A stretch of DNA of 64,000 bases from Eledone cirrhosa (lineage: Eukaryota), in the NCBI GenBank assembly GCA_964016885.1, contig OZ024741.1, positions 62,930,001-62,994,000 of the forward strand, written 5' to 3'. This document shows positions 3,904-64,000 of the stretch, in pieces. The translations under genes and the position numbers were made by a program. The notes beneath the pieces were generated by a model, which did no database searches, was not told the origin of the DNA, and saw only the letters and a list, made by a program, of their open reading frames with translations. The stretch's first letter is position 1; each line of letters opens with the position of its first letter.

Positions 3904-3937
3904 GTTGAAAAGGAGTGGAAAAGATGGGAAAGACCAC

Positions 3938-6286: not shown

Positions 6287-9200
6287 CGTAAAGAAAATAA
6301 GAATGAAGAGAGAAGCAGGCGGACGGACAGAGAAGAGGGGGGAAAAACTAAAACTTAAAAAACAAAAACTAAGTCAGACATTCGAACACTACATTACAAT
6401 GAAACTTATGCTTATTCATTTTTGGGGCCATTTCTGCCTGTGTGTTTGTTTGTCTATGTGTGTTCGTATACAGCGTGGTGATAATGCCACACAAGGGCCA
6501 AGTGGAATGGCGGATCCACAGATGGATATGTAACCATACATTCGCCAATCCTCGATAAGAGTGTTTAAATATCGAACATAAACAGTTCGAATAACGGTGA
6601 AATGGAGACTAGAACGTCATGTGACAGACTCTCACCCAACAGGTGCCCTCTGGCTCAGCAGCAGGAACCTGACTGTCAACAAAATACTGCTGATGTTGGA
6701 GGAAGGAGAAGAAGGAAAGGGGCCAGAACCAACTGGACGAAAGAATTGAATAGAACTGTTATGCAATGTTACCTGAAAAGTAACCCCAAGGAGAGGGGCT
6801 ACAGGAGACGGATGCATAACATCTGGAACGAGATTGGTTTATTTAAATTAGATGAACAAAAATTGGCCGGGCAGGCTCGGGTAATAAGAACTAATGGATG
6901 GATAGGCGAGCTGGAACTGGAGGAACTGAGCAGAGAGAATGGCTTGGAGATGGCGGGTGTAGTATGCCAGATAAGCGAGCCAGTGGGAAATGAAGGTGAA
7001 GAGGTCCTGAGAACGGAGGAACCACCCGAAGCAGACAATGATCTGAATACTGAGATAAATAATACCTGGAACAGAGATACGGCCACTGAGGAGATGAATG
7101 CTGACGGGCTAGGACAAGATTCGGTTGACATCCTAAATTTAGTGGTAGATGAATTGAACAATGATAGTGGGAGACCTATGAACCTAAGATTTGTAGACAG
7201 GAAAAAGTTAAAAGAAACAACAGCTAAGGTAAACAAAGTCTTCCCATACCTTGAGGCGAGGAGCCTTCACCAGTGCAACAATATCCTCAAAGCAACAGCA
7301 AATACGGTGAGGAAACTACTTGGTATAAAAGCGAGAGGAAACAACAGACAAGAAAGAGCAGAGCCGTGGTGGAAGAAGCGACTGAGTGGGCAAATCGGGG
7401 AAATGAGAAATGACATAGGAAAGCTTGAGTCACTACTGAATGGGACACTAAAAAACATAGGCACTAAAAATAGGCTGGAAATAAAATACAAAACTAGGAG
7501 GAAAAAGCTAAATATTATCATAGAGGAACTGAAGCAACGCATTGTAGCAAAGAGTGCAAAAATAAGGCGATACGAGAACAGAGTCAGTCAGTATAAACAG
7601 AACCGCATGTTCGACAACAACCAGAAGATGCTGTTTGGACAGCTTGAGGGGAAAGAAAGAGGCAACGACTTGATCCCTGGGGCGGAGCAAACTAAAACAT
7701 TCTGGAGAGGAATATGGGAGCAGGATGTTAGACACAATGCCCAGGCAGGGTGGATTGAGACAGTACAGAGGGAGATCGGTGAGCAGGCACAACAACAAAC
7801 TGATTTGAGTATCACAGTTGAAACTCTTAAGGGGCAGGCCAAAAAACTAACCAACTGGAAATCACCAGGCCCAGATGGTGTGCAGGGGTATTGGATTAAA
7901 CATTTAACATCCCTCCACCCGAAGCTGACGGCCATGTTCAATGACTGCTTGGTGTCGGGTGAGGTGCCAGAGTGGTTGACAAAAGGTACCACAGTTCTGA
8001 TAATGAAAGACCGAATCAAGGGTAATGATGTTACCAACTATAGACCTATCACATGTCTGTCCGTAATGTGGAAACTGTTGACGAACATTGTGTCTGAGGA
8101 AATCTACCATCACCTCCACACAAACAACTTGTTACCGGACGAACAGAAAGGATGCCGAAAGAAGTCACGTGGTACAAAGGACCAGTTACTTATTGATAAG
8201 ATGGTAATGGGGAATTGCAGGAGGAGACACACTGATCTTGCCATGGGATGGATAGACTACAAAAAGGCATTTGACATGGTGCCTCATTCCTGGATCACCA
8301 AAAGCCTGGAGATCTTCAGGGTGGCAGATAACATCAGACAGTTGCTAGGCAGGAGTATGGGGTCCTGGGAGACAGAGTTAACATCAACTGGAGTATCCTT
8401 GGGAAGCGTGAAGATCAAGAGAGGTATCTTCCAGGGAGATAGCCTGTCCCCTCTGTTGTTTGTCCTTGCCCTGATGCCCTTGACCATTATGCTGCGAAAA
8501 GTGAGAGCAGGATACAAGTTGGGAAGGGGAGAGCTTACCATCAATCACCTCCTCTTCATGGACGATCTTAAGCTCTTCGGGAAAAGTGAGAAGGAGTTGG
8601 ATGTGCTTGTTGACACTGTCCGTATTTTCAGCAGTGATATATGTATGCAGTTTGGTATTGGTAAATGTGGAGTCATTGTGATGAAGAGGGGTAGGTTGAG
8701 CAGAAGTAACGGGATCCAGATACCAACAGGTGAGATGATAAAGGAAATTGACTCTGAGGAAGGATACAAGTATTTGGGCGTTCTGGAGGCTGATGGCATA
8801 AAGAACAAAAAAATGAAGGAATTGTTAAGAACTGAATACATTCGGAGAGTAAGGAGCGTATTGAAGTCACATCTGAACAGCAGAAATGCCATAAGCGCAG
8901 TAAATTCCCGAGCTGTGTCTATTATTAGGTACAGTGCGGGAATTCTGAGATGGAATGTTGCTGAACAAAAAGAAATGGATAGGAAGACTAGGAAGCTATT
9001 GACTATCTACAACATGTTCCACAAGAGGAGTGATGTCGATAGACTCTACCTAAGGAGATCTGAGGGTGGAAGAGGTCTTATCAGCATAGAGGACTGTGTT
9101 CAGATGGAGAAAAACAACCTATACAAATACGTGACCTATAGTAAGGAGCCAATGCTCAGAACTGTACTGAAGGAGGGGACAGTAGGCCAGGGGATGTCCA

Positions 9201-10070
9201 AGGAGGAAATAACATCAAGGAGGAAGAGCAGCCTTAAGGGAAAATCCCTTCATAGTACCTTCTTTGAGAAAACTGAATTTAGAGATCCACAGACATGGAA
9301 CTGGTTGAGAAGAGGAGACCTCAAAAAGGCTACAGAAGGAATGCTAATGGCTGCGCAGGAGCAGGCCCTCAAAACGAAGTGGTTGAAGCACCATATCTAC
9401 AAGGAGGAGGCTAGCCCACTGTGCAGGATCTGTGGAGAGAGAGAGGAGACTGTGGCTCACATTGTGTCCGAGTGTAAACACCTAGCCCAGACCCACTATA
9501 AGGGCTGGAGACACGATGTGATGGGCAGGGTGATCCACTGGCACCTGTGCAAAGTAAACAATTTACCACATTCTGAGAAATGGTATGAGCATAGGCCAGA
9601 GGCGGTGATGGAGAACAATCAGGTGAAGGTGCTGTGGGATTTTAGGATACAGACGGACAAAAAACTGGAACACAATAGACCTGACCTGGTGGTTGTGGAC
9701 AAAGAAAAAAGATCGTGTCTGATTGTGGATGTGGCCTGCCCGTTCGACACGAGAGTGCAAGAGAAGGAGAGGGAGAAAATTAACCGATACCAGGACCTAA
9801 AGTGGGAGGTGAAAAGGATTTGGAACTGCCATGAAGTCAAAGTGATCCCGATTGTCATAGGCGCACTGGGGACTATCTCCAAAAGTTTCCAGGGATGGTT
9901 AAAGAAAATCGGCCCCTTCACGCTTTTTGGAACGCTTCAAAAGGCATGCTTGCTTGGAACAGCAAGAACCCTCCGATACGTCCTGAATATCTGAGGCTGC
10001 AGGTAGTGGCTTGATATTCAATCCAACGGACTTTCCAGTTAACCAACATCAATGACTGAAATTCAAGGAA
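6285..10070 (+). mobile_element. R4/Dong-clade RLE non-LTR retrotransposon, apparently full length, in (AAT)n
   Basis: Single ORF; short 3' UTR followed by (AAT)n at ~10078-10142; (AAT)n also upstream. Dong elements are known to target (TAA)n. The exact 5' boundary is uncertain. Confidence 0.85.
6602..9994 (+). CDS. Reverse transcriptase + CCHC finger + PD-(D/E)xK restriction-like endonuclease, intact 1130 aa
   Basis: NWKSPGPDG, YRPITCL, DYKKAFDMVPH, RGIFQGDSLSP, HLLFMDDLKL, CRICGEREETVAHIVSEC, RHD, RPDLVVVD..DVACP, KINRY. Confidence 0.95.
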   Translation: METRTSCDRLSPNRCPLAQQQEPDCQQNTADVGGRRRRKGARTNWTKELNRTVMQCYLKSNPKERGYRRRMHNIWNEIGLFKLDEQKLAGQARVIRTNGWIGELELEELSRENGLEMAGVVCQISEPVGNEGEEVLRTEEPPEADNDLNTEINNTWNRDTATEEMNADGLGQDSVDILNLVVDELNNDSGRPMNLRFVDRKKLKETTAKVNKVFPYLEARSLHQCNNILKATANTVRKLLGIKARGNNRQERAEPWWKKRLSGQIGEMRNDIGKLESLLNGTLKNIGTKNRLEIKYKTRRKKLNIIIEELKQRIVAKSAKIRRYENRVSQYKQNRMFDNNQKMLFGQLEGKERGNDLIPGAEQTKTFWRGIWEQDVRHNAQAGWIETVQREIGEQAQQQTDLSITVETLKGQAKKLTNWKSPGPDGVQGYWIKHLTSLHPKLTAMFNDCLVSGEVPEWLTKGTTVLIMKDRIKGNDVTNYRPITCLSVMWKLLTNIVSEEIYHHLHTNNLLPDEQKGCRKKSRGTKDQLLIDKMVMGNCRRRHTDLAMGWIDYKKAFDMVPHSWITKSLEIFRVADNIRQLLGRSMGSWETELTSTGVSLGSVKIKRGIFQGDSLSPLLFVLALMPLTIMLRKVRAGYKLGRGELTINHLLFMDDLKLFGKSEKELDVLVDTVRIFSSDICMQFGIGKCGVIVMKRGRLSRSNGIQIPTGEMIKEIDSEEGYKYLGVLEADGIKNKKMKELLRTEYIRRVRSVLKSHLNSRNAISAVNSRAVSIIRYSAGILRWNVAEQKEMDRKTRKLLTIYNMFHKRSDVDRLYLRRSEGGRGLISIEDCVQMEKNNLYKYVTYSKEPMLRTVLKEGTVGQGMSKEEITSRRKSSLKGKSLHSTFFEKTEFRDPQTWNWLRRGDLKKATEGMLMAAQEQALKTKWLKHHIYKEEASPLCRICGEREETVAHIVSECKHLAQTHYKGWRHDVMGRVIHWHLCKVNNLPHSEKWYEHRPEAVMENNQVKVLWDFRIQTDKKLEHNRPDLVVVDKEKRSCLIVDVACPFDTRVQEKEREKINRYQDLKWEVKRIWNCHEVKVIPIVIGALGTISKSFQGWLKKIGPFTLFGTLQKACLLGTARTLRYVLNI

Positions 10071-16085: not shown

Positions 16086-16094
16086 TGTATATAT

Positions 16095-16518
16095 ATGTTA
16101 CTAGATATATTAATTCTTTATAATTAACTCCAAATTATTTTGTCGAGCAAAAATTGGCCAAAACTGCTACTATAGTAACGGTCCGGCTGCTGTCTTCTTA
16201 ACAAACCACTCCTCACTGATTGACCTCGATGTCACGTGACTGATTCTTTTGAATTTGCCACCGACGCAGTAGGCAGTGATTTTTTCAATGGCTTGGAATT
16301 TAGTCCACGCTTTGCTTTTTTCCATCCACTGAATTATTTTTGTATAAGTTCCCTGTGTCCACGTATTGTCTGGAAACTGAGCTGAGAATAGACTTCCCTG
16401 ATGACGAAAGGCTTCTCCGTACGTTTCTTCGGAAACTATGTTTATTCCCTTTCAGAAACTAATTAGTTGGAGTGAAATTTTAGTATGTAAGTTAATTTTA
16501 TAATTTTCTTATTTTACG

Positions 16519-16524
<6 letters not shown>
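16095..16524 (+). mobile_element. Diverged single-copy relative of the 573-bp hammerhead unit, flanked by (TA)n
   Basis: Shares tgtcgagcaaa, gtcacgtga.tgattc, ctgagaatagacttc, gaaactaattagttggagtgaaa and ttttcttattttacgtc with the 39.7-44.2 kb array. Confidence 0.8.
16394..16472 (+). ncRNA. Type I hammerhead ribozyme motif (family A)
   Basis: ttcc-CTGATGA-c-gaaagg...cctttc-a-GAAAC-taatta-GTT-ggag. Confidence 0.75.
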
Positions 16525-16590
<66 letters not shown>

Positions 16591-16718
16591 TTGTGTATAA
16601 TGGTAGCTATGGTGCTTCCATAGGCGGTATGCCAAAATTAGCACTCAATATTCAGCAGAGTAGAGTGTAGATAGTATAAAGAAAAAGAAAAATCAGTGAT
16701 GCATCTGGACTCAATTTA

Positions 16719-17710
16719 TTGCGTGTTACAATTGTTTCGCCGGCAGGTAGCTCGAGACATGCGCCTTACTCCAAACATGTACGCACCAACGTGCCAGGAC
16801 TTTTTTTCCGAGCGTTGGATGAGTGCTTTCCGCCGATGAACAAGTACCACAAAATCTTCAAACACCACACGGTTAAGTTTTCCTTCTCCACAACACCTAA
16901 CATACCCGACTACATGGCTAAAACTAACGCGGTGAAGATGGCGCACACTGGCCGTCAACGGCGGCGACAGAATGACCATATTTCGGAGTGCGGAGAACCA
17001 CCCAAGGACCGGCCCTCAAATGACAACCCGGCACCCGAGGCGACCATAGCGCCCACGGAGGGTGATGTGGTCAACGCCGAGAGGGAAATAGTGGCATGGG
17101 AGAGACAACAGTGTCGGCGGAACAACACCCTGAGAACCTTGAGAGGGCCATAACAGATCGAGGCCCGGACATCGGATGCATAAGAACTGGCAACAGAACA
17201 TGTAACTGTAGAGCGGGCACCCAGTGCCCCCTACATAGAAAATGCCTGATGAAGGACATAATATACAAGTGTGTGGTTACAACCCAAAACGCGCATCGCA
17301 CCTACTTCGGCGCAACATCCACGACCTTTAAATCGCGGATGTATAATCACACGAATTCCTTCAGAGACCGTAGCAAAAGACACTGCACTAGGTTAGAGGA
17401 CCTGGTGTGGGACCTGAAAGACCAAGGCACACCGTACGCCCTGGACTGGAGTATCGTTTGCCATGCGAGGGCATATTCGGCCGGAAGCAGAAAGTGCCGA
17501 TTATGCCTACACGAGGCCATGGAGATAGTCAGACTGAAAGATGACACGGTCAACCTCAAGTCTGAAATTATCATGACCTGCAGACACCAGAGAAGATGCA
17601 CATTTGCAGCATGGAATCCTCCGGGTGGCGCAGGCTGGGGCATGGGGACGGGTACGCACAGACCCGAACGGCCCAACGGGATTAGAGGACTTGGCGCCAT
17701 GCTCCGATGA
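16719..17710 (+). pseudogene. Penelope-like element 3' part (linker + GIY-YIG endonuclease, Naiad-like)
   Basis: PYSKHVRTNV..FFRALDECFP..KFSFSTTPN; CNCR..CPL..CL; IIYKC..TYFGATSTTFKSRMYNH; CRLCLHE; NLKSEI..CRH; one frameshift. Confidence 0.85.
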
Positions 17711-18265: not shown

Positions 18266-18460
18266 AACGGTTGGAGCTTCCTGGATAGCTCCAACCGTTA
18301 AAGTTGTCTTTTTTCCGGGTAGTCAATATTTATTTATAAAACAAATCTGTATTTTATCTGATGAAAGCGCACCATAATTTGCCATGGTTGCCCTTGAATT
18401 ATGTATAAAATAAATATGGTTTTATAAATATAGTTTCCATTTATTAATATATTGTATATA
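18266..18460 (+). mobile_element. Short pLTR-like fragment with a degenerate hammerhead (family B) and a 5' fold-back
   Basis: Hairpin taacggttggagct..agctccaaccgtta; attttat-CTGATGA-aag..ctt-GAAT at 18351-18410; homologous to 45820-46000 and 60125-60280; (TA)n flanks. Confidence 0.65.
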
Positions 18461-37382: not shown

Positions 37383-37427
<45 letters not shown>

Positions 37428-37428
<1 letters not shown>

Positions 37429-37622
37429 GTTATTCCGGGTTGAATCGGAGGTAACCACAGTAAGTAAGGTACTCAATACATAGCAGAGTATAACAGTTTT
37501 AATATAGATGAGATTCTACAGGACTAGAACTGTTTCATTCATTAGAAATCATCAGGAATCCATTCCTGATGATTTCTAATGAATGAAACAGTTCTAGTCC
37601 TGTAGAATCTCATCTATATTAA

Positions 37623-37626
<4 letters not shown>
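37428..37626. mobile_element. (TA)n-bounded fold-back with two inverted hammerheads (family C)
   Basis: 65-bp arms 37495-37559 and 37562-37626; attc-CTGATGA-t-ttc-taat-gaa-t-GAAACAG-ttctagtc-CTGTA-gaat at 37562-37608. Confidence 0.85.
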
Positions 37627-37689
<63 letters not shown>

Positions 37690-39692: not shown

Positions 39693-39736
<44 letters not shown>

Positions 39737-39755
39737 GACGTAAAATAAGAAAATA

Positions 39756-39786
<31 letters not shown>

Positions 39787-40885
39787 AAAAAAATTTTTTT
39801 CTTACTTAAATTTTCACTCCAACTAATTAGTTTCTGCAATGGGATAAAGACAGTTACGTAATCCAACTGTCGAGAATTCATTGCGTCATCAGGAAGTCTA
39901 TTCTCAGTTAAGTCTCCAGGCAATGCGCGGACACTGGCGGCTCATATAAAAATAATAATAATTCGGTAGATCGAACAGCTTGCGAGGACTGGATTCTATG
40001 TACCGAAATTCTCACTGCTTCAAGTCAAATGGCCGATTCTAAAGAATCAATCACGTGACACAGAGGCTAGTTAGAAGGAATGGGATGGTAAGATGACTGA
40101 CGCCTACTAACACCCCAAAAAAAATTTTTTTAGAAGTGGTTTTGACAAGTTTGCTCGACAAATCAGTGATTTGGAGATAAATATAGATAATTTAATATAT
40201 CAACTAACATAAGCGCACAGATGCACGCCCATGCCAGCAAATACACAGGTTATGTCATAGTACCTAGGTGGTTCAATGCAGGAGAATGCAGAACAATAAT
40301 ATAAAGGACGTAAAATAAGAAAATATATATATTTTTTTTTTTTTTTTTTTTTTTAATTTTTTTCTTACTTAAATTTTCACTCCAACTAATTAGTTTCTGC
40401 AATGGGATAAAGACAGTTACGTAATCCAACTGTCGAGAATTCATTGCGTCATCAGGAAGTCTATTCTCAGTTAAGTCTCCAGGCAATGCGCGGACACTGG
40501 CGGCTCATATAAAAATAATAATAATTCGGTAGATCGAACAGCTTGCGAGGACTGGATTCTATGTACCGAAATTCTCACTGCTTCAAGTCAAATGGCCGAT
40601 TCTAAAGAATCAATCACGTGACACAGAGGCTAGTTAGAAGGAATGGGATGGTAAGATGACTGACGCCTACTAACACCCCAAAAAAAATTTTTTTAGAAGT
40701 GGTTTTGACAAGTTTGCTCGACAAATCAGTGATTTGGAGATAAATATAGATAATTTAATATATCAACTAACATAAGCGCACAGATGCACGCCCATGCCAG
40801 CAAATACACAGGTTATGTCATAGTACCTAGGTGGTTCAATGCAGGAGAATGCAGAACAATAATATAAAGGACGTAAAATAAGAAA

Positions 40886-40925
<40 letters not shown>

Positions 40926-42656
40926 AAAAAAATTTTTTTCTTACTTAAATTTTCACTCCAACTAATTAGTTTCTGCAATGGGATAAAGACAGTTACGTAA
41001 TCCAACTGTCGAGAATTCATTGCGTCATCAGGAAGTCTATTCTCAGTTAAGTCTCCAGGCAATGCGCGGACACTGGCGGCTCATATAAAAATAATAATAA
41101 TTCGGTAGATCGAACAGCTTGCGAGGACTGGATTCTATGTACCGAAATTCTCACTGCTTCAAGTCAAATGGCCGATTCTAAAGAATCAATCACGTGACAC
41201 AGAGGCTAGTTAGAAGGAATGGGATGGTAAGATGACTGACGCCTACTAACACCCCAAAAAAAATTTTTTTAGAAGTGTTTTTGACAAGTTTGCTCGACAA
41301 ATCAGTGATTTGGAGATAAATATAGATAATTTAATATATCAACTAACATAAGCGCACAGATGCACGCCCATGCCAGCAAATACACAGGTTATGTCATAGT
41401 ACCTAGGTGGTTCAATGCAGGAGAATGCAGAACAATAATATAAAGGACGTAAAATAAGAAAATATTTTTTTTTTTTTTTTTTTTTTTAAATTTAAAAAAA
41501 TTTTTTTTCTTACTTAAATTTTCACTCCAACTAATTAGTTTCTGCAATGGGATAAAGACAGTTACGTAATCCAACTGTCGAGAATTCATTGCGTCATCAG
41601 GAAGTCTATTCTCAGTTAAGTCTCCAGGCAATGCGCGGACACTGGCGGCTCATATAAAAATAATAATAATTCGGTAGATCGAACAGCTTGCGAGGACTGG
41701 ATTCTATGTACCGAAATTCTCACTGCTTCAAGTCAAATGGCCGATTCTAAAGAATCAATCACGTGACACAGAGGCTAGTTAGAAGGAATGGGATGGTAAG
41801 ATGACTGACGCCTACTAACACCCCAAAAAAAATTTTTTTAGAAGTGGTTTTGACAAGTTTGCTCGACAAATCAGTGATTTGGAGATAAATATAGATAATT
41901 TAATATATCAACTAACATAAGCGCACAGATGCACGCCCATGCCAGCGGCCATTTGACTTGAAGCAGTGAGAATTTCGGTACATAGAATCCAGTCCTCGCA
42001 AGCTGTTCGATCTACCGAATTATTATTATTTTTATATGAGCCGCCAGTGTCCGCGCATTGCCTGGAGACTTAACTGAGAATAGACTTCCAGATGACGCAA
42101 TGAATTCTCGACAGTTGGATTACGTAACTGTCTTTATCCCATTGCAGAAACTAATTAGTTGGAGTGAAAATTTAAGTAAGAAAAAAATTTTTTTTAAATT
42201 TAAAAAAAAAAAAAAAAAAAAATATATATATTTTCTTATTTTACGTCCTTTATATTATTGTTCTGCATTCTCCTGCATTGAACCACCTAGGTACTATGAC
42301 ATAACCTGTGTATTTGCTGGCATGGGCGTGCATCTGTGCGCTTATGTTAGTTGATATATTAAATTATCTATATTTATCTCCAAATCACTGATTTGTCGAG
42401 CAAACTTGTAAAAACCACTTCTAAAAAAATTTTTTTTGGGGTGTTAGTAGGCGTCAGTCATCTTACCATCCCATTCCTTCTAACTAGCCTCTGTGTCACG
42501 TGATTGATTCTTTAGAATCGGCCATTTGACTTGAAGCAGTGAGAATTTCGGTACATAGAATCCAGTCCTCGCAAGCTGTTCGATCTACCGAATTATTATT
42601 ATTTTTATATGAGCCGCCAGTGTCCGCGCATTGCCTGGAGACTTAACTGAGAATAG

Positions 42657-42738
42657 ACTTCCTGATGACGCAATGAATTCTCGACAGTTGGATTACGTAA
42701 CTGTCTTTATCCCATTGCAGAAACTAATTAGTTGGAGT
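42657..42738 (+). ncRNA. Type I hammerhead ribozyme (family A); copies at +42084, +43230, +43911 and - 39816-39897, 40379-40460, 40955-41036, 41524-41605
   Basis: acttc-CTGATGA-c-gcaatg..(gacagtt..aactgtc)..cattgc-a-GAAAC-taatta-GTT-ggagt; palindromic stem III aactaattagtt. Confidence 0.85.
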
Positions 42739-42767
42739 GAAAATTTAAGTAAGAAAAAAATTTTTTT

Positions 42768-42801
<34 letters not shown>

Positions 42802-43340
42802 TATTTTCTTATTTTACGTCCTTTATATTATTGTTCTGCATTCTCCTGCATTGAACCACCTAGGTACTATGACATAACCTGTGTATTTGCTGGCATGGGC
42901 GTGCATCTGTGCGCTTATGTTAGTTGATATATTAAATTATCTATATTTATCTCCAAATCACTGATTTGTCGAGCAAACTTGTCAAAACCACTTCTAAAAA
43001 AATTTTTTTTGGGGTGTTAGTAGGCGTCAGTCATCTTACCATCCCATTCCTTCTAACTAGCCTCTGTGTCACGTGATTGATTCTTTAGAATCGGCCATTT
43101 GACTTGAAGCAGTGAGAATTTCGGTACATAGAATCCAGTCCTCGCAAGCTGTTCGATCTACCGAATTATTATTATTTTTATATGAGCCGCCAGTGTCCGC
43201 GCATTGCCTGGAGACTTAACTGAGAATAGACTTCCTGATGACGCAATGAATTCTCGACAGTTGGATTACATAACTGTCTTTATCCCATTGCAGAAACTAA
43301 TTAGTTGGAGTGAAAATTTAAGTAAGAAAAAAATTTTTTT

Positions 43341-43373
<33 letters not shown>

Positions 43374-43755
43374 TATTTTCTTATTTTACGTCCTTTATAT
43401 TATTGTTCTGCATTCTCCTGCATTGAACCACCTAGGTACTATGACATAACCTGTGTATTTGCTGGCATGGGCGTGCATCTGTGCGCTTATGTTAGTTGAT
43501 ATATTAAATTATCTATATTTATCTCCAAATCACTGATTTGTCGAGCAAACTTGTAAAAACCACTTCTAAAAAAATTTTTTTTGGGGTGTTAGTAGGCGTC
43601 AGTCATCTTACCATCCCATTCCTTCTAACTAGCCTCTGTGTCACGTGATTGATTCTTTAGAATCGGCCATTTGACTTGAAGCAGTGAGAATTTCGGTACA
43701 TAGAATCCAGTCCTCGCAAGCTGTTCGATCTACCGAATTATTATTATTTTTATAT

Positions 43756-43848
43756 CCTGCCGAGGTAGACTTTGCCTTTCATCCTTGATAAAATAAAGTA
43801 CCAGTAATGCACTGGGTAATTGCTGGCCTTGTGCCTAAAGTAGAAACA
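43756..43848 (+). mobile_element. Truncated SINE inserted in the last array unit
   Basis: 16-bp TSD attattatttttatat at 43740-43755 and 43849-43864. Confidence 0.92.
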
Positions 43849-44021
43849 ATTATTATTTTTATATGAGCCGCCAGTGTCCGCGCATTGCCTGGAGACTTAA
43901 CTGAGAATAGACTTCCTGATGACGCAATGAATTCTCGACAGTTGGATTACGTAACTGTCTTTATCCCATTGCAGAAACTAATTAGTTGGAGTGAAAATTT
44001 AAGTAAGAAAAAAATTTTTTT

Positions 44022-44059
<38 letters not shown>

Positions 44060-44194
44060 TTTCTTATTTTACGTCCTTTATATTATTGTTCTGCATTCTC
44101 CTGCATTGAACCACCTAGGTACTATGACATAACCTGTGTATTTGCTGGCATGGGCGTGCATCTGTGCGCTTATGTTAGTTGATATATTAAATTA

Positions 44195-44240
<46 letters not shown>

Positions 44241-46003: not shown

Positions 46004-46076
<73 letters not shown>

Positions 46077-46079
<3 letters not shown>

Positions 46080-46369
46080 GCTGCCAACTCGTTTTCGAGT
46101 ACAGCCACTACCTTATATCCATGTAGGAGGACCCCTACCGATGCGCTGAATGAGTGTGGCTTTTTAGTCCAGCCAGCGACTTGAAAACTCTGGTACAATC
46201 ACTACACTTGGGACAATTATTGACACATAATGCTGGGCCCTTGGTACCATGTGACGACAGGTGCAGAGAGATCTCCAGATGTAAAGCAATGCCTGTGCCG
46301 TGAAGCTTTTATAGTGAACAAAGGCACTGCACAAAGCCAGTCCCACTCTCTTAACCAAGATGATATTTA

Positions 46370-46433
<64 letters not shown>

Positions 46434-46755
46434 TGGCTGCCAACTCGTTTTCGAGTACGGCCACTACTTTATATCCATGTAGGAGAACCCCTACCGATGC
46501 GCTGAACGAATGTGACTTTTTAGTCCAGCCAGCGACGTGAAAACTCTGGTACAAAGACTACACTTGTGACCATTATTGACACATAGTGCAGGGCCCATGG
46601 TACCATGTGATGACAAGTGCAGAGAGATCTCAAGATATAAAGCAATGCCTGTGCTGTGAAGCTTTTATAGTGAGCAAAGGCACTGCACAAAGCCAGTCCC
46701 ACTCTCTTAACCAAAATGATATTTACCAAATGGTCCACCTGGTTCCTTATCACAC
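46077..46755 (-). mobile_element. Two tandem ~295-bp fragments ending in a C2H2 finger, hairpin and (TA)n; probable LINE (RTE-like) 3' ends
   Basis: 46077-46371 ~ 46433-46728; minus frame CSDCTRVFKSLAGLKSHTHSAHR*; terminal hairpin gtggctg..actcg-tttt-cgagt..cagccac. Confidence 0.55.
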
Positions 46756-49044: not shown

Positions 49045-51035
49045 GGTTAGTGGTTAGAAATGATCAGTGAGAGCAAGGTTGAGTTCCGTGGGATTGATAC
49101 CAGTGAGCTGGGACTCCTACTCAAACTTACCTATAGCAATAATTACCTAGACACATATGACCTTAGCAACCTGTGCCCTACAAGACCAGCAAGAGGCAGA
49201 CCACATACCATTACTTCAATGGCCAGCCAAGAAAACCCACACAGATAGATGGAACGGGTGGACCAGAGCCATACGGACACCCGAAAACCACGATGAACTG
49301 AAGGAAATGATTGCACATGCGGTAGGGGCCAGCATAAAACTAACCCTTAAGGAACATATGTTCAAATTTAATGGAAAAACATATGCCCAAGAGGAAGGAG
49401 CAGCCATTGGTGTTAGCATTGCAGGCGATATAGCTAACTTATTCATGGTATGGTGGGACAGTAGACTTAAACTTAAACTTAAAGAACAATTAGAAGACCC
49501 CTTAACCCTGATAATGTACTCCCGCTACGCTGATGATATAAACATCGTAGTTAAGACACCCCCACTAGAGAACAGTCAGGAACTAGAGAAAAACACAATG
49601 GAAAGCATCCAGCAAATAGCAAACTCCATCCACCAGAGCATTAGAGTTACTATAGACTACCCAAGTAAACACCCCAACCATCGATTACCTGTACTAGACA
49701 CAGAGCTCTGGTTAGATACCATTAACAACAAAAAACAAATCCTCCATTCCCATTATGCCAAACCCATGACTTCCAAACATTTGATCCACCGAAACTCGGC
49801 CGTTTCGGACCATACCAAAATCAACATACTGATTGCGGATTTGGTACGGGTGATGAGAAATGTGTCCCGCATGTGCAACCCCGAAGAACTAGAGAGACAC
49901 ATACAACACTTCATCCACCGTATGCAGTTCTCTGGCTACAATCAGAGAGATAAAATCAGAGTGTATAGAGAAGCCAGAACCAAATGGGAAAAAATGGTAA
50001 ATAATGACATAAATGGGACCTGCCCCTTGTATAGGAGCAAATTTTGGAATAGAATAGAAAGAACTAGGAACAAGGCTAATAGAATAAACTCATGGTATGA
50101 TAGCAATAAATACCAGAGTGTAATGTTCATCGATACAACCCCTAGAGGTGAATTAGCTTACAAATTTAGAAGGGCCCTAAATAAACATAAACTCAATATT
50201 AAGATAGTAGAAAGACCAGGTACCTCCGTAAAAACACTTATTAGCAAGACCCTCATGTATAGATAAGAAATGTATAACCTGTAAAATAAGCCCCCATATT
50301 AACTGTAAAACTAGAAATGTAGTCTATAGCATAAGATGTACTGAAGGACAATGTAGAGACAAAAATATAGTGTACATAGGTGAGACAGCTCGTAGTGTAG
50401 GGGAACGGATAAATGAACACTGGCGAGACCTTCAAGATAGTAAAGAATCATCTGTACTCTACCAACATGCTAAAATAGAACACAAGGGTAAATTAGAGAA
50501 CATAGAAATAAAAATAGAATCTACACACAGAAAAGACGCAATGTTTAGACAAATTACAGAGGCAATAAACATAAAAGAATTACAACCAAAATTAAATAGA
50601 AAATATGAGTGGAACAGCAACATCACAACTTACAATTAAGGACAAAATGAAAACACACACACACACATAGAACAAACAACCAACCAGTAACATGTAAATA
50701 AACAAATAAATAAATGAACATAAACACACACAGACACCCGGATGTGGCGCATGCGCAGACTGAGCACACAACACACACACAGAAACAAAATGGCGTAGGA
50801 CAGAACAAAGGAGAGGCACAGAAACAAAGAAAGGAATCCCCAGTCACTGAAGAGGTCACAGAGTGTGTGACGAAAGGACTATGACAATATATAAACAACT
50901 ATCTGGTTGTGGAACCAACCAACCAGAAGTTTATAAATTTATAAATTTATTATAAATTTATTATAATAAATTGAAGTGAAAGCAACTGGTGCGTGTGTTT
51001 CTTATTGGCAACATGACCCTCCCAAAGTATAACAA
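49045..51035 (+). mobile_element. 5'-truncated Penelope-like element (RT + GIY-YIG + 3' pLTR), frameshifted
   Basis: FKFNGKTYAQEEGAAIG, YSRYADD, LPVLD, HYAKPM; NVVYSIRC..VYIGETARSVGERINEH..RQITEA..LNRKYEW; (TA)n at both ends. Confidence 0.9.
50843..50885 (+). ncRNA. Minimal type I hammerhead (family F) in the Penelope 3' UTR
   Basis: gtca-CTGAAGA-g-gtcaca-gagtg-tgtgac-GAAAG-ga-CTA-tgac. Confidence 0.85.
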
Positions 51036-51089: not shown

Positions 51090-54000
51090 TCGGCGCAGGT
51101 CACTGATTTGGTTGGCCTATACTTACTTAACCTAATCCACAGGGAACTTCCGTACCTCAGCGGTGGTTTGTATCGCGACGATGCACTTCTACTTATAGAC
51201 TATAAAAAATTCAATATAGAAAGGACTATTGCACAAAACATTCAAAAACTTTAACCTTAGTATTACCATGGACAAAAACACCAAAAACGTCAACTTCCTA
51301 GACGCCACACTCTACTTAGACTCAATGATATATGCACCTTTCCACAAACCTAATGAAAAACTCATCTACGTAGATACCAAGTCTAACCACCCTAAATCTA
51401 TATTGAACTCTATCTCTAAGGGAGTATCTAATAGAATCTCTAATCTATCCTATGACATAAACACATTTAACAATAACTCGCAGTATTATAATCAGGCATT
51501 AGCTAGATCAGGCCATAATACAGGGATAGAGTTCCTACCTACAAAAACACATAGCTACAACATCATTTCACACAACATGTCCATGGGAAAATTTAATAAT
51601 AGGAATAGCAACTGCACACACACTAATAGGGATTGTAACAACAAGAGTAACCCGCACCACAGAAATCACCATAGGAACATTAAAGGAAACAAATCACCAG
51701 ATATAAAAAACAGAAATAGAAGAAGAAATAATACATTTTGCAACCCTCCTTTCAATTTAAACGTCTCTACCAACCTTCCTAGGGCTTTCTTCTCACTACT
51801 AGATAAACACTTCCCATCCGGCCACAGGTACCACGGCCTTTTAAACAAAAACACTATTAAGATCTCATACTCTACTACGCCTAACTTAGCATACCACATA
51901 GCTAGTACAAATAAAAGGAAAATTAATTCTTACTTCCAACAAACTAAATCACAACGGTCGATAAACCTTCAAAATAACATTCAAAATAACAGTCAAAGTA
52001 ACATTATAACAAATAACCGTAATATCAATGGAAATAATAGTAATAGCACTAGTGTAAACATTAACGCTGCGTACCACAACCCGCATAACCATAACCCTAT
52101 AGCTAACATCCAAACTTCTACACAGCATAGTAACCGGCAGACTAGCACCCAGAGTAATTGTAACTGTAGATCAAGTAGAACCTACTCTTTAGATAAAACA
52201 TGCTTAACCAAGGATATCATATACTCATTTACAGTCACAACTAACAGCTCTTCTGAAACCTACATAGGCTCCACTTCTAACTGCTTCAAAACTAGATACA
52301 ATTCGCACCTCCACTCTTTCAAAAAACACAGTCTAGCCAACTCCACTTCACTATCTAGCTACATACACTATCTAAAAACTAAAAATAAAATATATACACT
52401 TAAATGGGAAGTGGTAGGTAGTGCAACATCGTACAAACCACCTGATAAATTTTGTAACCTCTGTCTACTAGAGACCCATACTATCATCTTCTCTAAACAT
52501 AATCTCCTTAATAAAAAATCAGAAGTGTTCGCAAATTGCCAACACCGCTTCCGACACTCGTTCCCAAACTTTAAACCCTATATATAATAATGTCAGACTG
52601 GAACCGGCACCACCCCTGGCAATTAACATCAGTAGCACACCTTACACCTCACATCCACACCCATCTCTATACTCTAAAGATAATACTGACAGCATTTTAG
52701 TACCACCTACCCTGGGAATACCCCCTTGTACCTCTAATATTGATATCTCGACCGTGGACTACTTATTCTGCATTGCACAAATATATGATTAGTATAAATT
52801 GGGGTCACGGTACTGGTTGCGATAGCATAGTCCTGTGCATGGATTACCACCAAGAGATAGATTGATGATTAGATAGATAATCGTATTGTTATGTGAATAT
52901 ATACTGTAAGCGATCAGTTCAATGAATTATGCACGTAATCATCTTGATGTGAACTCCTTTAGTACCTATTAATAGACTCCACTCTAGCTTGTAGATGTGA
53001 TACATAATTGATTTATATTTGAGACGGGGGTTGTCTATTGCTTGATGGCCAGACTAGTGCATTTATATGAGAGATTGGATCTCCGGACCATACCGAAGAT
53101 TTACTGGAGATGCAGGCATGCAATGACCCGGAGCCTACCGGGGGCATATATAATAGTGGGACCATACCAGGTCCTACTGTTATATTACATTTGCATGGAG
53201 CAGTGACTTGAGAGTCTGACTCCTCTTATAGAACGTTCAGATATGACACCCCTTAATTAATGGATGGTAATCATCCTAATATATACACCCTTGTACTTCT
53301 TAATGGAGAACTCTCTAACCTATAAATGGGTAACATACTCTAGATATTAGTTATAACTTCACATGATAGGCACGTATTTGAATCACCATTAATGTAGTTT
53401 AGGATAGTAATGTAACTAAGATAACTAGCTAGTTACCTCCCCTTACGCATTAATTCCCCTTAGTCATTCAGGCACTTCCGGAATCTGGACAGCATGATAT
53501 ATTAATTAAGAACCGACTGGATACGGTTTATAGCTTGACTATATGCTGAACCACCGCGAATTATACGATAGACGCGTGTTCTCTATATATATTGCGTCTC
53601 ATGGATTATGTGAGTGGTGGTGTGAGCAAGGACAGTGGTACGGCCTTGCCTACGATACAATAAGGTTTATAGTATGTTGAAAGTTTTTGATATTTTGGTG
53701 TTTCCCCGCATCCGAGACTGTATATCATACAGATGTATGAGAATAAATGACTTAATAATTCAGCCTACATAATAAGATCGATTGCCTGCTTCAACTGCCT
53801 GACCCTGCAAATATCATTCTGACGCACTCTAATCATGTATAAATAAGACACGCGTGCATGCTACGCGGGAGATTGTTTCATACACTGACTACTCTAAGCT
53901 TTCCTCTTGCTTTATCTTCATAGACTGCCAACGCTTCATGTTTATCTTTATTTTCACTCTTATTTTCACTCTTGTTTTTATTTTATTTTTATCCTGTAAC

Positions 54001-60177: not shown

Positions 60178-60236
60178 ATTTTATCTGATGAAAGCGTACC
60201 AAAGTTTTGGTACCCATGAAATATATATAATAGAAT
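60178..60236 (+). ncRNA. Hammerhead motif (family B)
   Basis: attttat-CTGATGA-aagc-gtaccaaa-gt-tttggtac-ccat-GAAAT-atat-ATA-atagaat. Confidence 0.65.
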
Positions 60237-60399
60237 AAATATGGTTTTATAAATATAGTTTCCATTCATTAATATTATTGATATTATACTCCAGTTAACT
60301 TGTCGAGTGCTTCGAATCAGTTATATATATATATATATATATATTTGTTGAATTACCAACAAATTAAATATCCCTTTGCTTATATATAAATATATATAT

Positions 60400-63300
60400 A
60401 TAGAGAGAGATTACAATAATCAAAGTTCAGTTTAAGTCATTTATTTGCTTACAATTGTTTCCTCCAAACCGAGGTTTGGATTCTTCGGAGCAACTATTTA
60501 CTGATCTATAACATACTTGACCTCCTTTTCAACCCAAGAGACATATAAAACACAAGAGACATATAAAACATATGCGCATATTGATCAACAGTGGGGTGAC
60601 ATTCATCAAATGATATAGCATGGCAATTTACATATAGAGGTTACAGGATAAAAATAAAAATAAAAATAAAAATAAAAATAAAAATAAAAATAAAAATAAA
60701 AATAAAAATAAAAATAAAAATAAAAATAAAAATAAAAATAAAAATAAAAATAAAAATAAAAATAAAAACAAAAATGAAAATAAATATAAGCATGAAGCGT
60801 TGGCAGTCTATGAAGATAAAGCAAGAGGAAAGTTTAGAGTAGTCAGTGTATGAAACAAAATATATTACCATAAAAGGTTTTATTACATACATAACCATAA
60901 ATAGTATCCTTAATACTAATAACTGCTCCATTTTGTTGAGCTGATATACCATAAATTACCAGCATGCTGATCAAAGACCAACTCCCTATGTCAACCAAGA
61001 ACATACCTATACCAACCAAAAATACATATGAAAAGGTGTTGATCAACAGTGTAAACTCCTTTATCAATAGAGTGAGATGGAGGACATTCCATTATGATAG
61101 AAACAAATCTGGCAAGGATAATAACACCAACAAATTTGACTCCTTCGGCTTTAAAACATTTAGAAGCCCCCCTCATAACACACTACTAAACCACTTCGAA
61201 AACGACCTAATAAAACTAGTTAAGAATATTAAATACAAAAAACACCATAATAAAAACAACACCTTCTTAAACAAACTTAGCACCTCTATTAATGATTTCA
61301 AAACTAGTAGTAACATTTTTGTACATGCCGACAAAACTAATAACATATACAGCCTAGATTATAATACTTATAGAAAGTTTATATATAATGAACTACATAA
61401 AAGCTACAAGAAAACCACTATGAAAAACTTAGAAGATATTAATATGGAAGGCTATAATATAGTATCCAAACTAGGGCTCCAGAGACATACACAACCTTAC
61501 ACCCCTAACCCCCCTAGATTCTCTCTGAAGGACCATAAGGTGGACTTCATTAGAAACCCTCGATTAGACTCATCTGCCCCTCCAGGTCTGACATTGGCAT
61601 TATCAGTAAAACAATTCTAAACAAAATCATCCCACAGATTAAACACAAGATTTACCTTAAACAATGGGGAAATACGGGTGAAGTGATTGAATGGTTCAAA
61701 AATATCATAGATAACAAGCATAAAAAATTTATTCAATTTGATATCAACTCTTACTACACCTCTATTTCCCCTATCCTACTAAATAAGGCACTTATAATGG
61801 CCATGGACAATAGTGACCTGACTAGACCCCAGATTGATGTCATACTCGCGGCCCGTAAAACAATAATCACCTTTGAAGACCAATTATGGACCCGCAAGGA
61901 TACGCAAAACAACTTCGACATTACTATGGGGTCTAGTGACTCGGCGCAGGTCACTGATTTAGTTGGCCTATACTTACTTAACCAAATCCACAGGGAACTT
62001 CCGTACCTCAGCGGTGGTTTGTATCGCGACGATGCACTTCTACTTATAAACTATAAAAAATTCAATATAGAAAGGACTAGAAAACTATTGCACAAAACAT
62101 TCAAAAACTTTAACCTTAGTATCACCATGGACAAAAACACCAAAAACGTCAACTTCCTAGACGCCACACTCTACCTAGACTCAATGATATATGCACCTTT
62201 CCACAAACCTAATGAAAAACTCATCTACGTAGATACCAAGTCTAACCACCCTAAATCTATATTGAACTCTATCTCTAAGGGAGTATCTAATAGAATCTCT
62301 AATCTATCCTATGACATAAACACATTTAACAATTACTCGCAGTATTATAATCAGGCATTAGCTAGATCAGGCCATAATACAGGGATAGAGTTCCTACCTA
62401 CAAAAACACATAGCTACAACATTATTTCACACAACATGTCCATGGGAAAATTTAATAATAGGAATAGCAACTGCACAGACACTAATAGGGATAGTAACAA
62501 CAAAAGTAACCCACACCACAGAAATTACCATAGGAACATTAAAGGAAACAAATCACCAGACATAAAAAACAGAAATAGAAGAAGAAATAATACATTTTTC
62601 AACCCTCCTTTCAATTTAAACGTCTCTACCAACCTACCTAGGGCTCTCTTCTCACTACTAGATAAACACTTCCCATCCGGCCACAGGTACCACGGCCTTT
62701 TAAACAAAAACACTATTAAGATCTCATACTTTACTACGCCTAACTTAGCATACCACATAGCTAGTACCAATAAAAGAAAAATTAATTCTTACTTCCAACA
62801 AACTAAATCACAACAGTCGATAAACCTTCAAAATAACATTCAAAATAACATTCAAAGTAACATTATAGCAACTAACCGTAATATCAATGGAAATAATAAT
62901 AATAGCACTAGTGTAAACATTAACGCTGCGTACCACAACCCACATAACCATAACCCTATAGCTAACATCCAAACTTCTACACAGCATAGTAACCGGCAGA
63001 CTAGCACCCAGAGTAATTGTAACTGTAGATCAAGTAGAACCTGCCCTTTAGATAAAAAATGCTTAACCAAGGATATCATATACTCATGTACAGTCACAAC
63101 TAACAACTCTTCTGAAACCTATATAGGCTCTACTTCTAACTGCTTCAAAACTAGATACAATTCGCACATCCACTCTTTCAAAAAACACAGTCTAGCCAAC
63201 TCCACTTCACTATCTAGCTACATACACTATCTAAAAACTAAAAATAAAATATATACACTTAAATGGGAAGTGGTAGGTAGTGCAACATCGTACAAACCAC

Positions 63301-64000
63301 CTAATAAATTTTGTAACCTCTGTCTACTTGAGACCCATACTATCATCTTCTCTAAACATAATCTCCTTAATAAAAAATCAGAAGTGTTCGCAACTTGCTA
63401 ACACTGCTTCCGACACTCATTCCAAAACTTAAAACCCTATATATAATAATGTCAGACTGGAACCGGGACCACCCCTGGCAATTAACATCAGTAGCTCACC
63501 TTACACCTCACATCCACACCCATTTATATACTCTAAGGATAATACTGACAGCATTTTAGTACCACCTACCCTGGGAATACCCCCTTATACCTATAATTCT
63601 GATATCTCGACCGTGGACTACTTAAACTGCATTGCACAAATATAAGATTAGTATAAACCGGGAACACGGTATTGGTTGCGATAACATAATCCTGTGCATG
63701 GATTGCCACCAAGAGATAGATTGATGATTAGATAGATAATCGTATTGTTATGTGAATATATACTGTAAACGATCAGTTCAATGAATTATGCACAGGTGAT
63801 GCATGAGTTAGGAGTCTCTGTGTTGCCAGGGGACCTGATCGGTATCTTTTGACGAGAGAACCGGCCACCGGACCACCCTGGTGAATTCACCGGGGATGCA
63901 GTCATACTACGACCTGAATCTCGCCGGGAGTCATGTATGATAATAAGACCATTACTGATAGTGAGACCCATATAATTAATTATGTAGTCTGACTCTCCTT
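60400..64000 (+). mobile_element. Near-full-length Naiad-like Penelope element with an inverted 5' pLTR (60400-60855); runs off the window
   Basis: 60400-60855 is the reverse complement of 53878-54220 and contains a (TAAAAA)n expansion; RT-GIY-YIG ORF follows. Confidence 0.9.
60964..63449 (+). pseudogene. Penelope RT + GIY-YIG ORF with a 1-nt frameshift (~61560) and a CAA>TAA stop at 63399-63401
   Basis: KNIPIP, RVRWR, ADKTNN, LKDHK, IRLICP, FDINSYYTSI, ITMGSSDSA, LYRDD, NFLD, CNCR..CPL..CL, IIY..YIG, CNLC. Confidence 0.9.

What the first reader, a model, noticed from the sequence alone, without database searches (positions are those of the whole stretch)
39729..44199. Mirror-image concatemer of a 573-bp hammerhead-ribozyme unit: candidate circRNA-derived retrozyme
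Seen: eight near-identical non-coding units, four reading leftward and four rightward from a junction at ~41946. Each has one hammerhead motif (stem I acttc/ggagt, CUGAUGA, stem II gcaatg/cattgc with an inserted hairpin, GAAAC, palindromic aactaattagtt, GUU). The arms start and stop at different phases of the unit, and both outer ends merge into (TA)n through short TA microhomology. Known: tandem hammerhead repeats in animals (non-LTR retrozymes, Penelope pLTRs) self-cleave to monomers that can circularise, and palindromic stem III motifs work as dimers. Inference: a circular ~573-nt RNA was copied rolling-circle fashion from both ends of a (TA)n break by a Penelope RT, giving a divergent double concatemer. 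The unit is longer than the animal retrozymes I know of.
Basis: partly seen in the sequence, partly recalled or inferred. Interest (0 to 1): 0.88.

Follow-up and report, generated by a model that had tools for sequence, protein, structure and literature searches.

The report
Two-armed hammerhead retrozyme, Penelope-style insertion
This is one copy of a young, protein-free jumping repeat that carries a predicted self-cutting RNA motif and sits in TA microsatellites as two back-to-back arrays ending at two different fixed points of the unit, which suggests that a Penelope-type enzyme copies it from both sides of a DNA break and makes that copying step testable.

Summary
It belongs to a young dispersed family (2,556 exact core matches in the genome). 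Outer ends are not random. They fall at two fixed sites, A and B, about 122 nt apart, each fused to (TA)n. Two-armed copies pair A with B: 35 of 35 in an unselected genome sample, with no AA or BB. This is the Penelope 'tail on one end' signature. Inner ends pile up at the predicted cut site (7 of 122), stem II covaries, and units within a copy share their substitutions. Best reading: a non-LTR retrozyme, likely copied by a Penelope-type RT priming from both ends of a break, on cut or circular RNA. RNA, cleavage, circles and the partner enzyme were not shown. Unit length is ordinary. Retrozymes and Penelope inverted ends are published; I found no paper with the strict A+B rule or the cut-site footprint. 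This scan has noted the same pattern in other families, in this and other genomes.

The parts
39696..39733 (.). left (TA)n target tract
39729..41946 (-). left arm, 4.0 units, RNA-sense on minus strand; 3' (outer) end at fixed site A, 5' end at unit position 140
39729..39743 (-). site A: 10-nt spacer plus TATAT after a long predicted hairpin, fused to (TA)n
39816..39897 (-). hammerhead motif 1 (predicted cut after 39821)
40379..40460 (-). hammerhead motif 2 (predicted cut after 40384)
40955..41036 (-). hammerhead motif 3 (predicted cut after 40960)
41524..41605 (-). hammerhead motif 4 (predicted cut after 41529)
41946..41946 (.). head-to-head junction of the two 5' ends, one shared base
41946..44205 (+). 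right arm, about 3.8 units plus SINE piece; 5' end at unit position 343, 3' (outer) end at fixed site B
42084..42165 (+). hammerhead motif 5, core mutated (CAGAUGA, 42090)
42657..42738 (+). hammerhead motif 6 (predicted cut after 42733)
43230..43311 (+). hammerhead motif 7 (predicted cut after 43306); its stem III palindrome is predicted to pair with that of motif 6
43756..43848 (+). 5'-truncated tRNA-type SINE piece, 16-bp target duplication (43740-43755 / 43849-43864); a passenger or later insertion
43911..43992 (+). hammerhead motif 8 (predicted cut after 43987)
44084..44205 (+). 'tail' between site A and site B (about 122 nt), terminal only on this arm
44137..44201 (+). site B: conserved predicted hairpin (44137-44186), 10-nt spacer, TATAT fused to (TA)n
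44199..44240 (.). right (TA)n target tract

Best explanation
This is one insertion of a young, non-coding hammerhead retrozyme family whose two-armed copies end at two fixed sites, one per arm, in (TA)n, and it was likely written by a Penelope-type reverse transcriptase priming from both ends of one break. SHOWN in the sequence: dispersed copies, fixed 3' ends A and B, A+B pairing, free 5' ends joined head-to-head by short microhomology or short inserts, an excess of 5' ends at the predicted cut site, covarying ribozyme stems, no ORF. INFERRED cycle: (1) an array is transcribed as a multimer; (2) neighbouring units pair their palindromic stem III and cut after GUU, giving monomers and short multimers, part of which would be ligated to circles (55-60%); (3) a Penelope-type RT-endonuclease, probably a dimer, binds the 200 nt downstream of the cut site, where two hairpin + 10-nt spacer + UAUA modules lie; (4) it cuts both strands of (TA)n, one 3' end anneals at A and the other at B, and each is extended into antisense cDNA for 0-11 units; (5) the two cDNA ends are joined by microhomology repair. 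One-armed copies would be events where one arm stayed at or near zero length. That both arms come from the same RNA molecule is the least certain step (about 45%).
For: Ends: exact A|(TA)n 298 and B|(TA)n 563 in the genome, controls 0. On contig 1 and the first 43.5 Mb of contig 2, 35 of 35 divergent pairs are A+B, none AA or BB (chance under independence at most 3e-11). 18 of 18 two-armed loci picked only by similarity are A+B. Of loci fetched from a lone exact end, 13 of 13 B-anchored ones with a directly joined second arm in view had A, and 4 of 4 A-anchored ones had B. Only 2 of the unit's 4 TATA sites are used. The sister family (394 of 512 aligned positions identical) uses the homologous two sites. 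An HHR-bearing RT+GIY-YIG element in the same genome has short and long ends, 6 of 7 divergent pairs short+long. 54 of 61 two-armed copies have at least 10 nt of TA on both sides. Cut site: 7 of 122 inner ends at unit positions 556-1 against 0.66 expected (6 events); L162 and sister-family L181 stop there on both arms. Fold: 9 of 21 pairs with two-sided change, 0 of 500 shuffles reach the covariation score, slid controls 0.03-0.11 against 0.40; one stem II pair takes four pair types. A two-unit stretch is predicted to pair the two stem III palindromes. Monomer bottleneck: in 37 multi-unit copies 75 substitutions are fixed in all units, 13 are partial, 42 single; 13 haplotypes. The RT passed the cut site in 99 of 104 first and 128 of 130 later encounters. 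Literature: a purified PLE protein cuts and extends both strands, starts at two internal sites that define the tail and is predicted to be a dimer (PMC11167929).
Against: No RNA, cleavage or circle was observed. No autonomous element sharing this unit's 3' region was found in 30 RT loci, 30 GIY-YIG loci or beside 117 family loci. The core has an unpaired A between C11.1 and G12 and a GUU triplet, both atypical (the GUU point is from my own knowledge), and 8 of 9 predicted Xenopus retrozyme dimers did not cleave in vitro. Only 4 of the 75 fixed substitutions are private to one copy, so a few homogeneous master arrays could explain much of the homogeneity. Rare variants recur between units or arms in L034, L037, L045, L047, L132, L136 and this window, which a pure monomer circle does not predict. 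Two of the arms that stop at the cut site do so after 1-2 extra units (L102, L115), which points to linear multimers. Inner ends are not uniform elsewhere either: a second cluster of 5 lies at positions 486-488, so the nominal P for the cut site is too small. In vitro, PAc showed no difference in start site between strands. In the sister family 4 two-armed loci have one end off both sites (read by eye), and the autonomous element gave 1 long+long pair of 7. The hairpin + 10-nt geometry was not seen in two other families by single-sequence folding.
Confidence: 0.78

Rival explanations
1. Same twin priming, but the templates are only linear, partly cut read-through multimers from a few master arrays; no circle is involved and masters are homogenised at DNA level.
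For: Inner ends at the cut site after 1-2 extra units (L102, L115). Variants shared between arms or with period 2-5. Only 4 private fixed substitutions. Stops in the wider cut-site window on later passes are 6 of 134 against a background of 1.8% (p 0.03). PAc uses unprocessed RNA in vitro.
Against: 13 haplotypes, up to 18 substitutions from the commonest unit, are each fixed across all units of a copy; every round of 5' truncation shortens a linear lineage, so a monomer-to-multimer step is needed repeatedly. Arms reach 9-11 units. No arm running on into a source array's 5' flank was identified: the one long junction insert traced (L117) is 406 bp of an unrelated LINE copy; the 230-bp insert in L151 was not traced.
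Confidence: 0.33
2. One primed arm; the inverted arm arises by fold-back (self-priming) on the new cDNA or on an antisense template, as proposed for Penelope inverted ends.
For: Proposed in PMC3846280 from palindromes at inverted junctions (passages). 4 of 61 junctions here are perfect palindromes, more than chance (p 3e-4).
Against: A fold-back copy cannot outrun its template, yet the A arm is the longer in 25 of 60 copies and the B arm in the rest. 57 of 61 junctions join different phases. Slippage variants are not mirrored between arms (for example L150). It does not explain why the second end always stops at the other fixed site.
Confidence: 0.06
3. A DNA-level satellite (unequal crossing-over, extrachromosomal DNA circles, break repair) or an assembly artefact, with a non-functional hammerhead look-alike.
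For: No listed contig of the public runs bridges the central junction (uninformative for a high-copy repeat). Rfam gives no hammerhead hit.
Against: Hundreds of dispersed short arrays with polar ends (fixed 3', free 5'), each with its own junction and flanks; unit-specific variants and a SINE with its own target duplication inside one unit; covarying RNA stems; 5' ends at the RNA cut site.
Confidence: 0.03

Closest known systems
Metazoan non-LTR retrozymes (PMC7229834, parts 2-4 of 6 and one passage read; bioRxiv 10.64898/2026.07.22.740005, parts 1-3 of 5 read)
   Same: Non-coding tandem units of a few hundred bases, one type I hammerhead each, low GC, dimer-type stem III, co-occurring with PLEs, proposed rolling-circle copying by a PLE RT.
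   Different: The parts I read describe no inverted double arrays, fixed 3' ends or target preference; they show RNA and circles, which are untested here. The hammerhead here is of the PLE type (long stem II, extra base after A9) rather than the canonical loop-loop type.
Endonuclease-containing Penelope-like elements, Neptune/Naiad insertion structure (PMC8557442 and PMC3846280, passages)
   Same: Partial tandems, inverted 5'-truncated arm, a tail present at only one end, (TA)n bias, microhomology at 5' junctions.
   Different: No ORF; tail about 122 nt rather than 30-40; whole multi-unit arrays on both arms; the passages say 'often' or 'optionally' one end, here it is 35 of 35; junctions are mostly not palindromic.
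Poseidon_Ac in vitro mechanism (PMC11167929, parts 1-2 of 4 read)
   Same: Two internal RT start sites bounding the tail, both target strands cut and extended, AT-rich target, predicted dimer, hammerhead upstream of the start sites.
   Different: There the start site is not homologous to the target, no strand difference in site use was seen, and no reads ended at the hammerhead cut; here both sites carry TATAT matching the target, use is one each, and cDNA ends pile at the cut site.
Minimal PLE hammerheads (PMC4209133, parts 1-2 of 4 read)
   Same: Helix I of 5 bp, long helix II, extra base between 9 and 10.1, G10.1-C11.1, palindromic stem III, motifs on opposite strands 100-700 bp apart, proposed circles.
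   Different: Extra A between 11.1 and 12, a further hairpin in loop II, and residence in an ORF-less multimer.
LINE-1 twin priming (recalled, no call)
   Same: Both target ends prime cDNA on sense RNA, giving an inverted arm joined by microhomology.
   Different: L1 starts at the poly(A) end and the second site is variable and next to the first arm's end; here both sites are internal and fixed, and both arms can run many units.

Membership tests
non-LTR retrozyme | tandem units each with a type I hammerhead | tested here: met
   7 of 8 cores intact in the window; covarying stems in 9 family variants
non-LTR retrozyme | no protein-coding capacity, no LTR pair around an internal region | tested here: met
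   longest stop-free frame 55 aa on either strand of a doubled unit; copies consist of units only; PBS/PPT not searched
non-LTR retrozyme | unit of some hundred bases | tested here: met
   557 modal, 563-576 here; published range 51-972
non-LTR retrozyme | self-cleavage of the transcript | not testable with these tools
   indirect only: 7 of 122 cDNA ends at the predicted site, predicted dimer fold
non-LTR retrozyme | expressed as linear and circular RNA | not testable with these tools
   no RNA holder listed; indirect homogeneity test mixed
non-LTR retrozyme | target duplication longer than 4 bp when present | tested here: inconclusive
   ends lie in (TA)n, where a duplication cannot be read
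autonomous Penelope-like element | ORF with telomerase-like RT and GIY-YIG endonuclease | tested here: not met
   no ORF; no PLE ORF joined to any of 117 family loci
PLE-mobilised non-autonomous element | inverted 5'-truncated arm and tail on one end only | tested here: met
   tail 122 nt instead of 30-40
PLE-mobilised non-autonomous element | (TA)n target bias as in Neptune/Naiad | tested here: met
   54 of 61 two-armed copies on both sides; 59 of 61 unpaired arms at the 3' end (many of these loci were fetched by a TA-containing pattern, but all 36 picked by similarity also end in TA)
PLE-mobilised non-autonomous element | PLE-type hammerhead (extra base after A9, G10.1-C11.1, short helix I, palindromic stem III) | tested here: met
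   against PMC4209133; one further unpaired A before G12
PLE-mobilised non-autonomous element | sequence shared with the pLTR of an autonomous partner | tested here: inconclusive
   none in 30 RT loci and 30 GIY-YIG loci out of 23,679 and 10,596 candidates

The most novel reading that the evidence does not exclude
A Penelope protein dimer is functionally asymmetric: it clamps one small RNA circle at two hairpin-marked UAUA sites, hands one to each end of a cut (TA)n, and both active sites copy the same circle round and round at once (a double rolling circle), so the Penelope 'tail', the inverted arm and retrozyme multimers are all products of one reaction, with the hammerhead acting as a dimer-only switch that makes and spares the monomer circle.
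Probability: 0.3. Interest if true: 0.82.

Novelty: new variant of a known kind. Interest (0 to 1): 0.6.

Why it matters
Three points are left open in the papers read: which enzyme moves animal retrozymes, how Penelope elements make their inverted arm and one-sided tail, and whether their hammerheads cut in vivo. A young family with hundreds of near-identical copies gives countable answers: retrozyme arrays carry the Penelope integration signature, the two start sites are used one per target end, and some cDNAs stop exactly at the ribozyme cut site. It supplies a short defined RNA (about 200 nt of cis signals) for the existing in vitro PLE assay. The element class itself is known, and the locus has no evident host function.

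Tried and rejected
Rfam scan: no hammerhead family hit, only TA-repeat noise. TRF misses the unit (period cap 500). RNA runs: no RNA holder listed; this says nothing on expression. Contigs of runs X19, X22-X24 hold the unit or parts of it; no listed contig of X19-X22 bridges the central junction, uninformative. Partner search: the window's RT+GIY-YIG family (30 loci), 30 GIY-YIG loci (one family has a loosely similar AT-rich 3' end, no significant alignment; the only real hit was a sister-family copy in the flank of L224), and the insert in L117 (an unrelated LINE copy): no partner. A-to-G editing scars: no excess among variants private to one of 113 copies (A>G 2, 1 and 4 against T>C 2, 7 and 9). 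Hairpin + 10-nt spacer as a general rule: not seen in two other families. Imprecise template jumping between linear monomers: none of 114 full units in the first 37 loci needed an altered cut-site junction, though units were cut at that motif and lengths of 533-681 bp occur. Rows dropped: L131 (two separate pieces) from all two-armed counts; L132 (second end beyond the fetched stretch) from end counts; L062 (ambiguous junction) from inner-end counts; L129's inner end corrected by eye from 7 to 557; the A/T tracts (104 of 557 positions) masked. One search's z-score is not used because the A/T hairpin and the repeated motif inflate it. Searches for prior reports of the strict pairing or cut-site footprint found none; subscription papers and all supplements were not seen and may describe them.
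Full report
Observation. The window holds two divergent arms between (TA)n tracts: 39729-41946 on the minus strand and 41946-44205 on the plus strand, meeting at one shared base. Units match at 98-100%. There are eight hammerhead motifs; the one at 42084-42165 has a mutated core. A 93-bp piece of an abundant SINE (full copies carry tRNA-type boxes, my reading) with a 16-bp target duplication interrupts the right arm. No frame longer than 55 codons exists in a doubled unit. Below, unit position 1 is the base after the predicted cut, in the commonest 557-bp unit (15 of 114 full units).

Family. A search of the own genome gave 421 candidates, 40 scored, nearly all 99-100% identical. An exact 27-mer of the core occurs 2,556 times, the reversed control 0 times. 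I fetched the 36 other loci listed and 80 more chosen by their ends. A sister family with a 524-bp unit (394 of 512 aligned positions identical; 2,685 candidates) has a copy at window 16094-16525. Conservation across 11 diverged units is highest from the ribozyme through position 200 (about 0.9 outside the A/T tract and the loop II hairpin) and lower over 226-425 (0.69-0.86).

Fixed outer ends. In all 37 first loci every arm's 3' end lay at site A (positions 76-79) or site B (194-201) and ran into (TA)n. Exact A and B junctions occur 298 and 563 times, controls 0. Only the first 100 places of each were listed; they cover contig 1 and 43.5 Mb of contig 2 for both patterns (52 A, 100 B). Among these, 35 of 35 divergent neighbours within 15 kb are A+B, none AA or BB; two further neighbours are same-strand. 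Independent of that selection, 18 of 18 two-armed loci are A+B. Of 40 loci fetched from a lone exact B, 13 had a directly joined second arm with its end in view and all 13 were A; of 13 from a lone exact A, 4 had one and all were B. Overall 61 of 61 with both ends seen are A+B, but 26 of these were fetched because one search had paired them. Either end may lie left (36 against 27 of the 63 rows). One-armed copies end in A or B (10 and 9 in the first set). The unit has four TATA sites; only these two are used. Both follow a long predicted hairpin by 10 nt in the aligned fold of 8 variants (4 of 43 pairs with two-sided change, many one-sided G-U changes, many invariant) and by 9-11 nt in single folds of both families; hairpin ends are uncertain by 1-2 nt. 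The sister family uses the homologous sites: by eye 10 two-armed loci are A+B, 4 have one end off both sites, none is AA (30 loci, one duplicated).

Penelope signature. An inverted 5'-truncated arm, a tail at one end only and (TA)n bias are described for Penelope-like elements (PMC8557442, PMC3846280; passages). A purified PLE protein cuts and extends both strands and starts at two internal sites that bound the tail (PMC11167929; parts 1-2 of 4). As an in-genome control, the element at window 49151-51035 has weak RT and GIY-YIG hits, a CX4CxxC linker, a hammerhead-like motif, 23,679 candidates and short and long ends in TA; 6 of 7 divergent pairs are short+long. It shares no significant sequence with this unit, and no partner was found.

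Inner ends. The two 5' ends meet with 0-14 nt of overlap or short inserts, longer only inside the A/T tract. Arm length has median 643 and maximum 5,108 nt among measured two-armed arms; one one-armed copy has 11 units. The A arm is the longer in 25 of 60. Seven of 122 inner ends fall at positions 556-1 (expected 0.66 if uniform; six events). L162 stops there on both arms, as does L181 of the sister family. A second cluster of five at 486-488 is unexplained and warns that ends are not uniform. The RT stopped at the site in 5 of 104 first and 2 of 130 later encounters, against 0.6% background: most templates were continuous across the site, a minority had a free 5' end there. Four of 61 junctions are perfect palindromes.

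Ribozyme. The motif fits the PLE type of PMC4209133 (parts 1-2 of 4): 5-bp helix I, extra base after A9, G10.1-C11.1, palindromic stem III. It adds an unpaired A before G12. On 9 variants, 90.5% of cells pair, 9 of 21 pairs change on both sides, no shuffle of 500 reaches the covariation score, and slid partners score 0.03-0.11 against 0.40 (the structure was drawn from the family's main variant and the rows are related, so this is support, not proof). Stem III does not form in one unit, but two copies pair at -10.8 kcal/mol and do so in the predicted fold of a two-unit stretch. Multimers would therefore cut and a monomer circle would be spared, the control described in PMC4209133. Activity is untested; 8 of 9 predicted Xenopus dimers failed in vitro.

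Circle or multimer. In 37 copies with at least 300 unmasked sites covered three times, 75 substitutions are fixed in all units, 13 are partial and 42 single; there are 13 haplotypes and 4 fixed changes private to one copy. A/T tract lengths vary from unit to unit without mirror symmetry (L150), as expected from RT slippage at each pass. This favours repeated passage through a monomer. Against a pure monomer circle: rare variants recur between arms or with period 2-5 in L034, L037, L045, L047, L132, L136 and this window, and two arms stop at the cut site after extra units. A mixed pool of circles and partly cut multimers, as shown for axolotl (PMC7229834), fits best; I put monomer or small circles as a main template at 55-60%.

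Mechanism and rivals. Both arms are antisense extensions of target 3' ends, so twin priming is the direct reading. Strict one-each use of A and B means the two priming events are coupled, most simply by one dimer holding both modules. Fold-back is excluded for most copies by arm lengths and unmirrored errors. A DNA satellite or an assembly artefact cannot give polar ends at hundreds of loci. The open rival is linear templates only.

Novelty. Non-LTR retrozymes are known, their link to PLEs is argued from co-occurrence and pLTR similarity (bioRxiv 10.64898/2026.07.22.740005, parts 1-3 of 5), and 573 bp is within the 51-972 bp range given there. In seven literature searches I found no report of retrozyme arrays with the inverted, one-tail structure, of strict one-each site use, or of cDNA ends at the hammerhead cut; subscription papers and supplements were not seen. 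Earlier notes of this scan describe the same two-site pattern in other unit families of this and other genomes; none matched this unit by sequence. I reached the reading before seeing them and do not count them as support. Verdict: new variant of a known kind, interest 0.6.

Noticed in passing
window 16094-16525: Copy of a sister retrozyme family (524-bp unit, 2,685 candidates) with compensatory stem II changes and the same two end sites.
   Followed up: yes
window 37383-37687: Miniature mirror insertion of another hammerhead family in (TA)n, two motifs back to back, one short and one long end (tail about 70 nt).
   Followed up: partly
window 49151-51035: 5'-truncated RT + GIY-YIG element with CX4CxxC linker and a hammerhead-like motif; 23,679 candidates, short and long 3' ends, 6 of 7 divergent pairs short+long.
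   Followed up: partly
window 16680-17710, 51220-52587, 60185-63401: Fragments of other Penelope-like ORFs (no Pfam hit), one with an asparagine-rich stretch and an upstream hammerhead-like motif at 60185 (relative at 18358).
   Followed up: no
window 43756-43848: 5'-truncated tRNA-type SINE inside a very young array, so the SINE is recently active or was captured during copying.
   Followed up: partly
L117:778-1189: 406 bp identical to one specific LINE copy on contig 28 sits between the B and A arms: a templated patch at the central junction. L151:2849-3081 has an untraced 230-bp insert.
   Followed up: partly
unit positions 486-488 (L032, L035, L051, L142, L163): Second cluster of inner ends, inside the CUGAUGA core; unexplained.
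   Followed up: no
L034:2204-7361 and L037:1022-8805: Rare tract variants appear in both arms in an order close to a 5-unit (L034) or 4-unit (L037) cycle: multimeric circle, patterned source array or gene conversion.
   Followed up: partly
L110, L111, L168, L191: Both arms stop at the same unit position; in L110 and L191 it lies between A and B, as a nicked monomer circle would give (L110 also has an 8-nt palindrome there).
   Followed up: partly
window 42497-42502 and repeats: A CACGTG box kept in both families within a less conserved region; similar boxes occur in 3' regions of autonomous elements (L221, L225, L233); possible internal promoter, label recalled.
   Followed up: no
L040:3181-3902, L066:3779-4454, L123:4941-5258: Young copies inserted into the (TA)n end of older relatives, giving nested clusters.
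   Followed up: no
window 46016-46728: Two-copy 356-bp tandem between TA tracts (93% match).
   Followed up: no
window 484-3942 (-) and 6569-9994 (+): Two long open LINE-type RT frames (1152 and 1141 aa).
   Followed up: no
L107 and L119: Two one-armed copies on contig 1 with the same inner end (position 178) and nearly the same length (1711 and 1703 nt).
   Followed up: no
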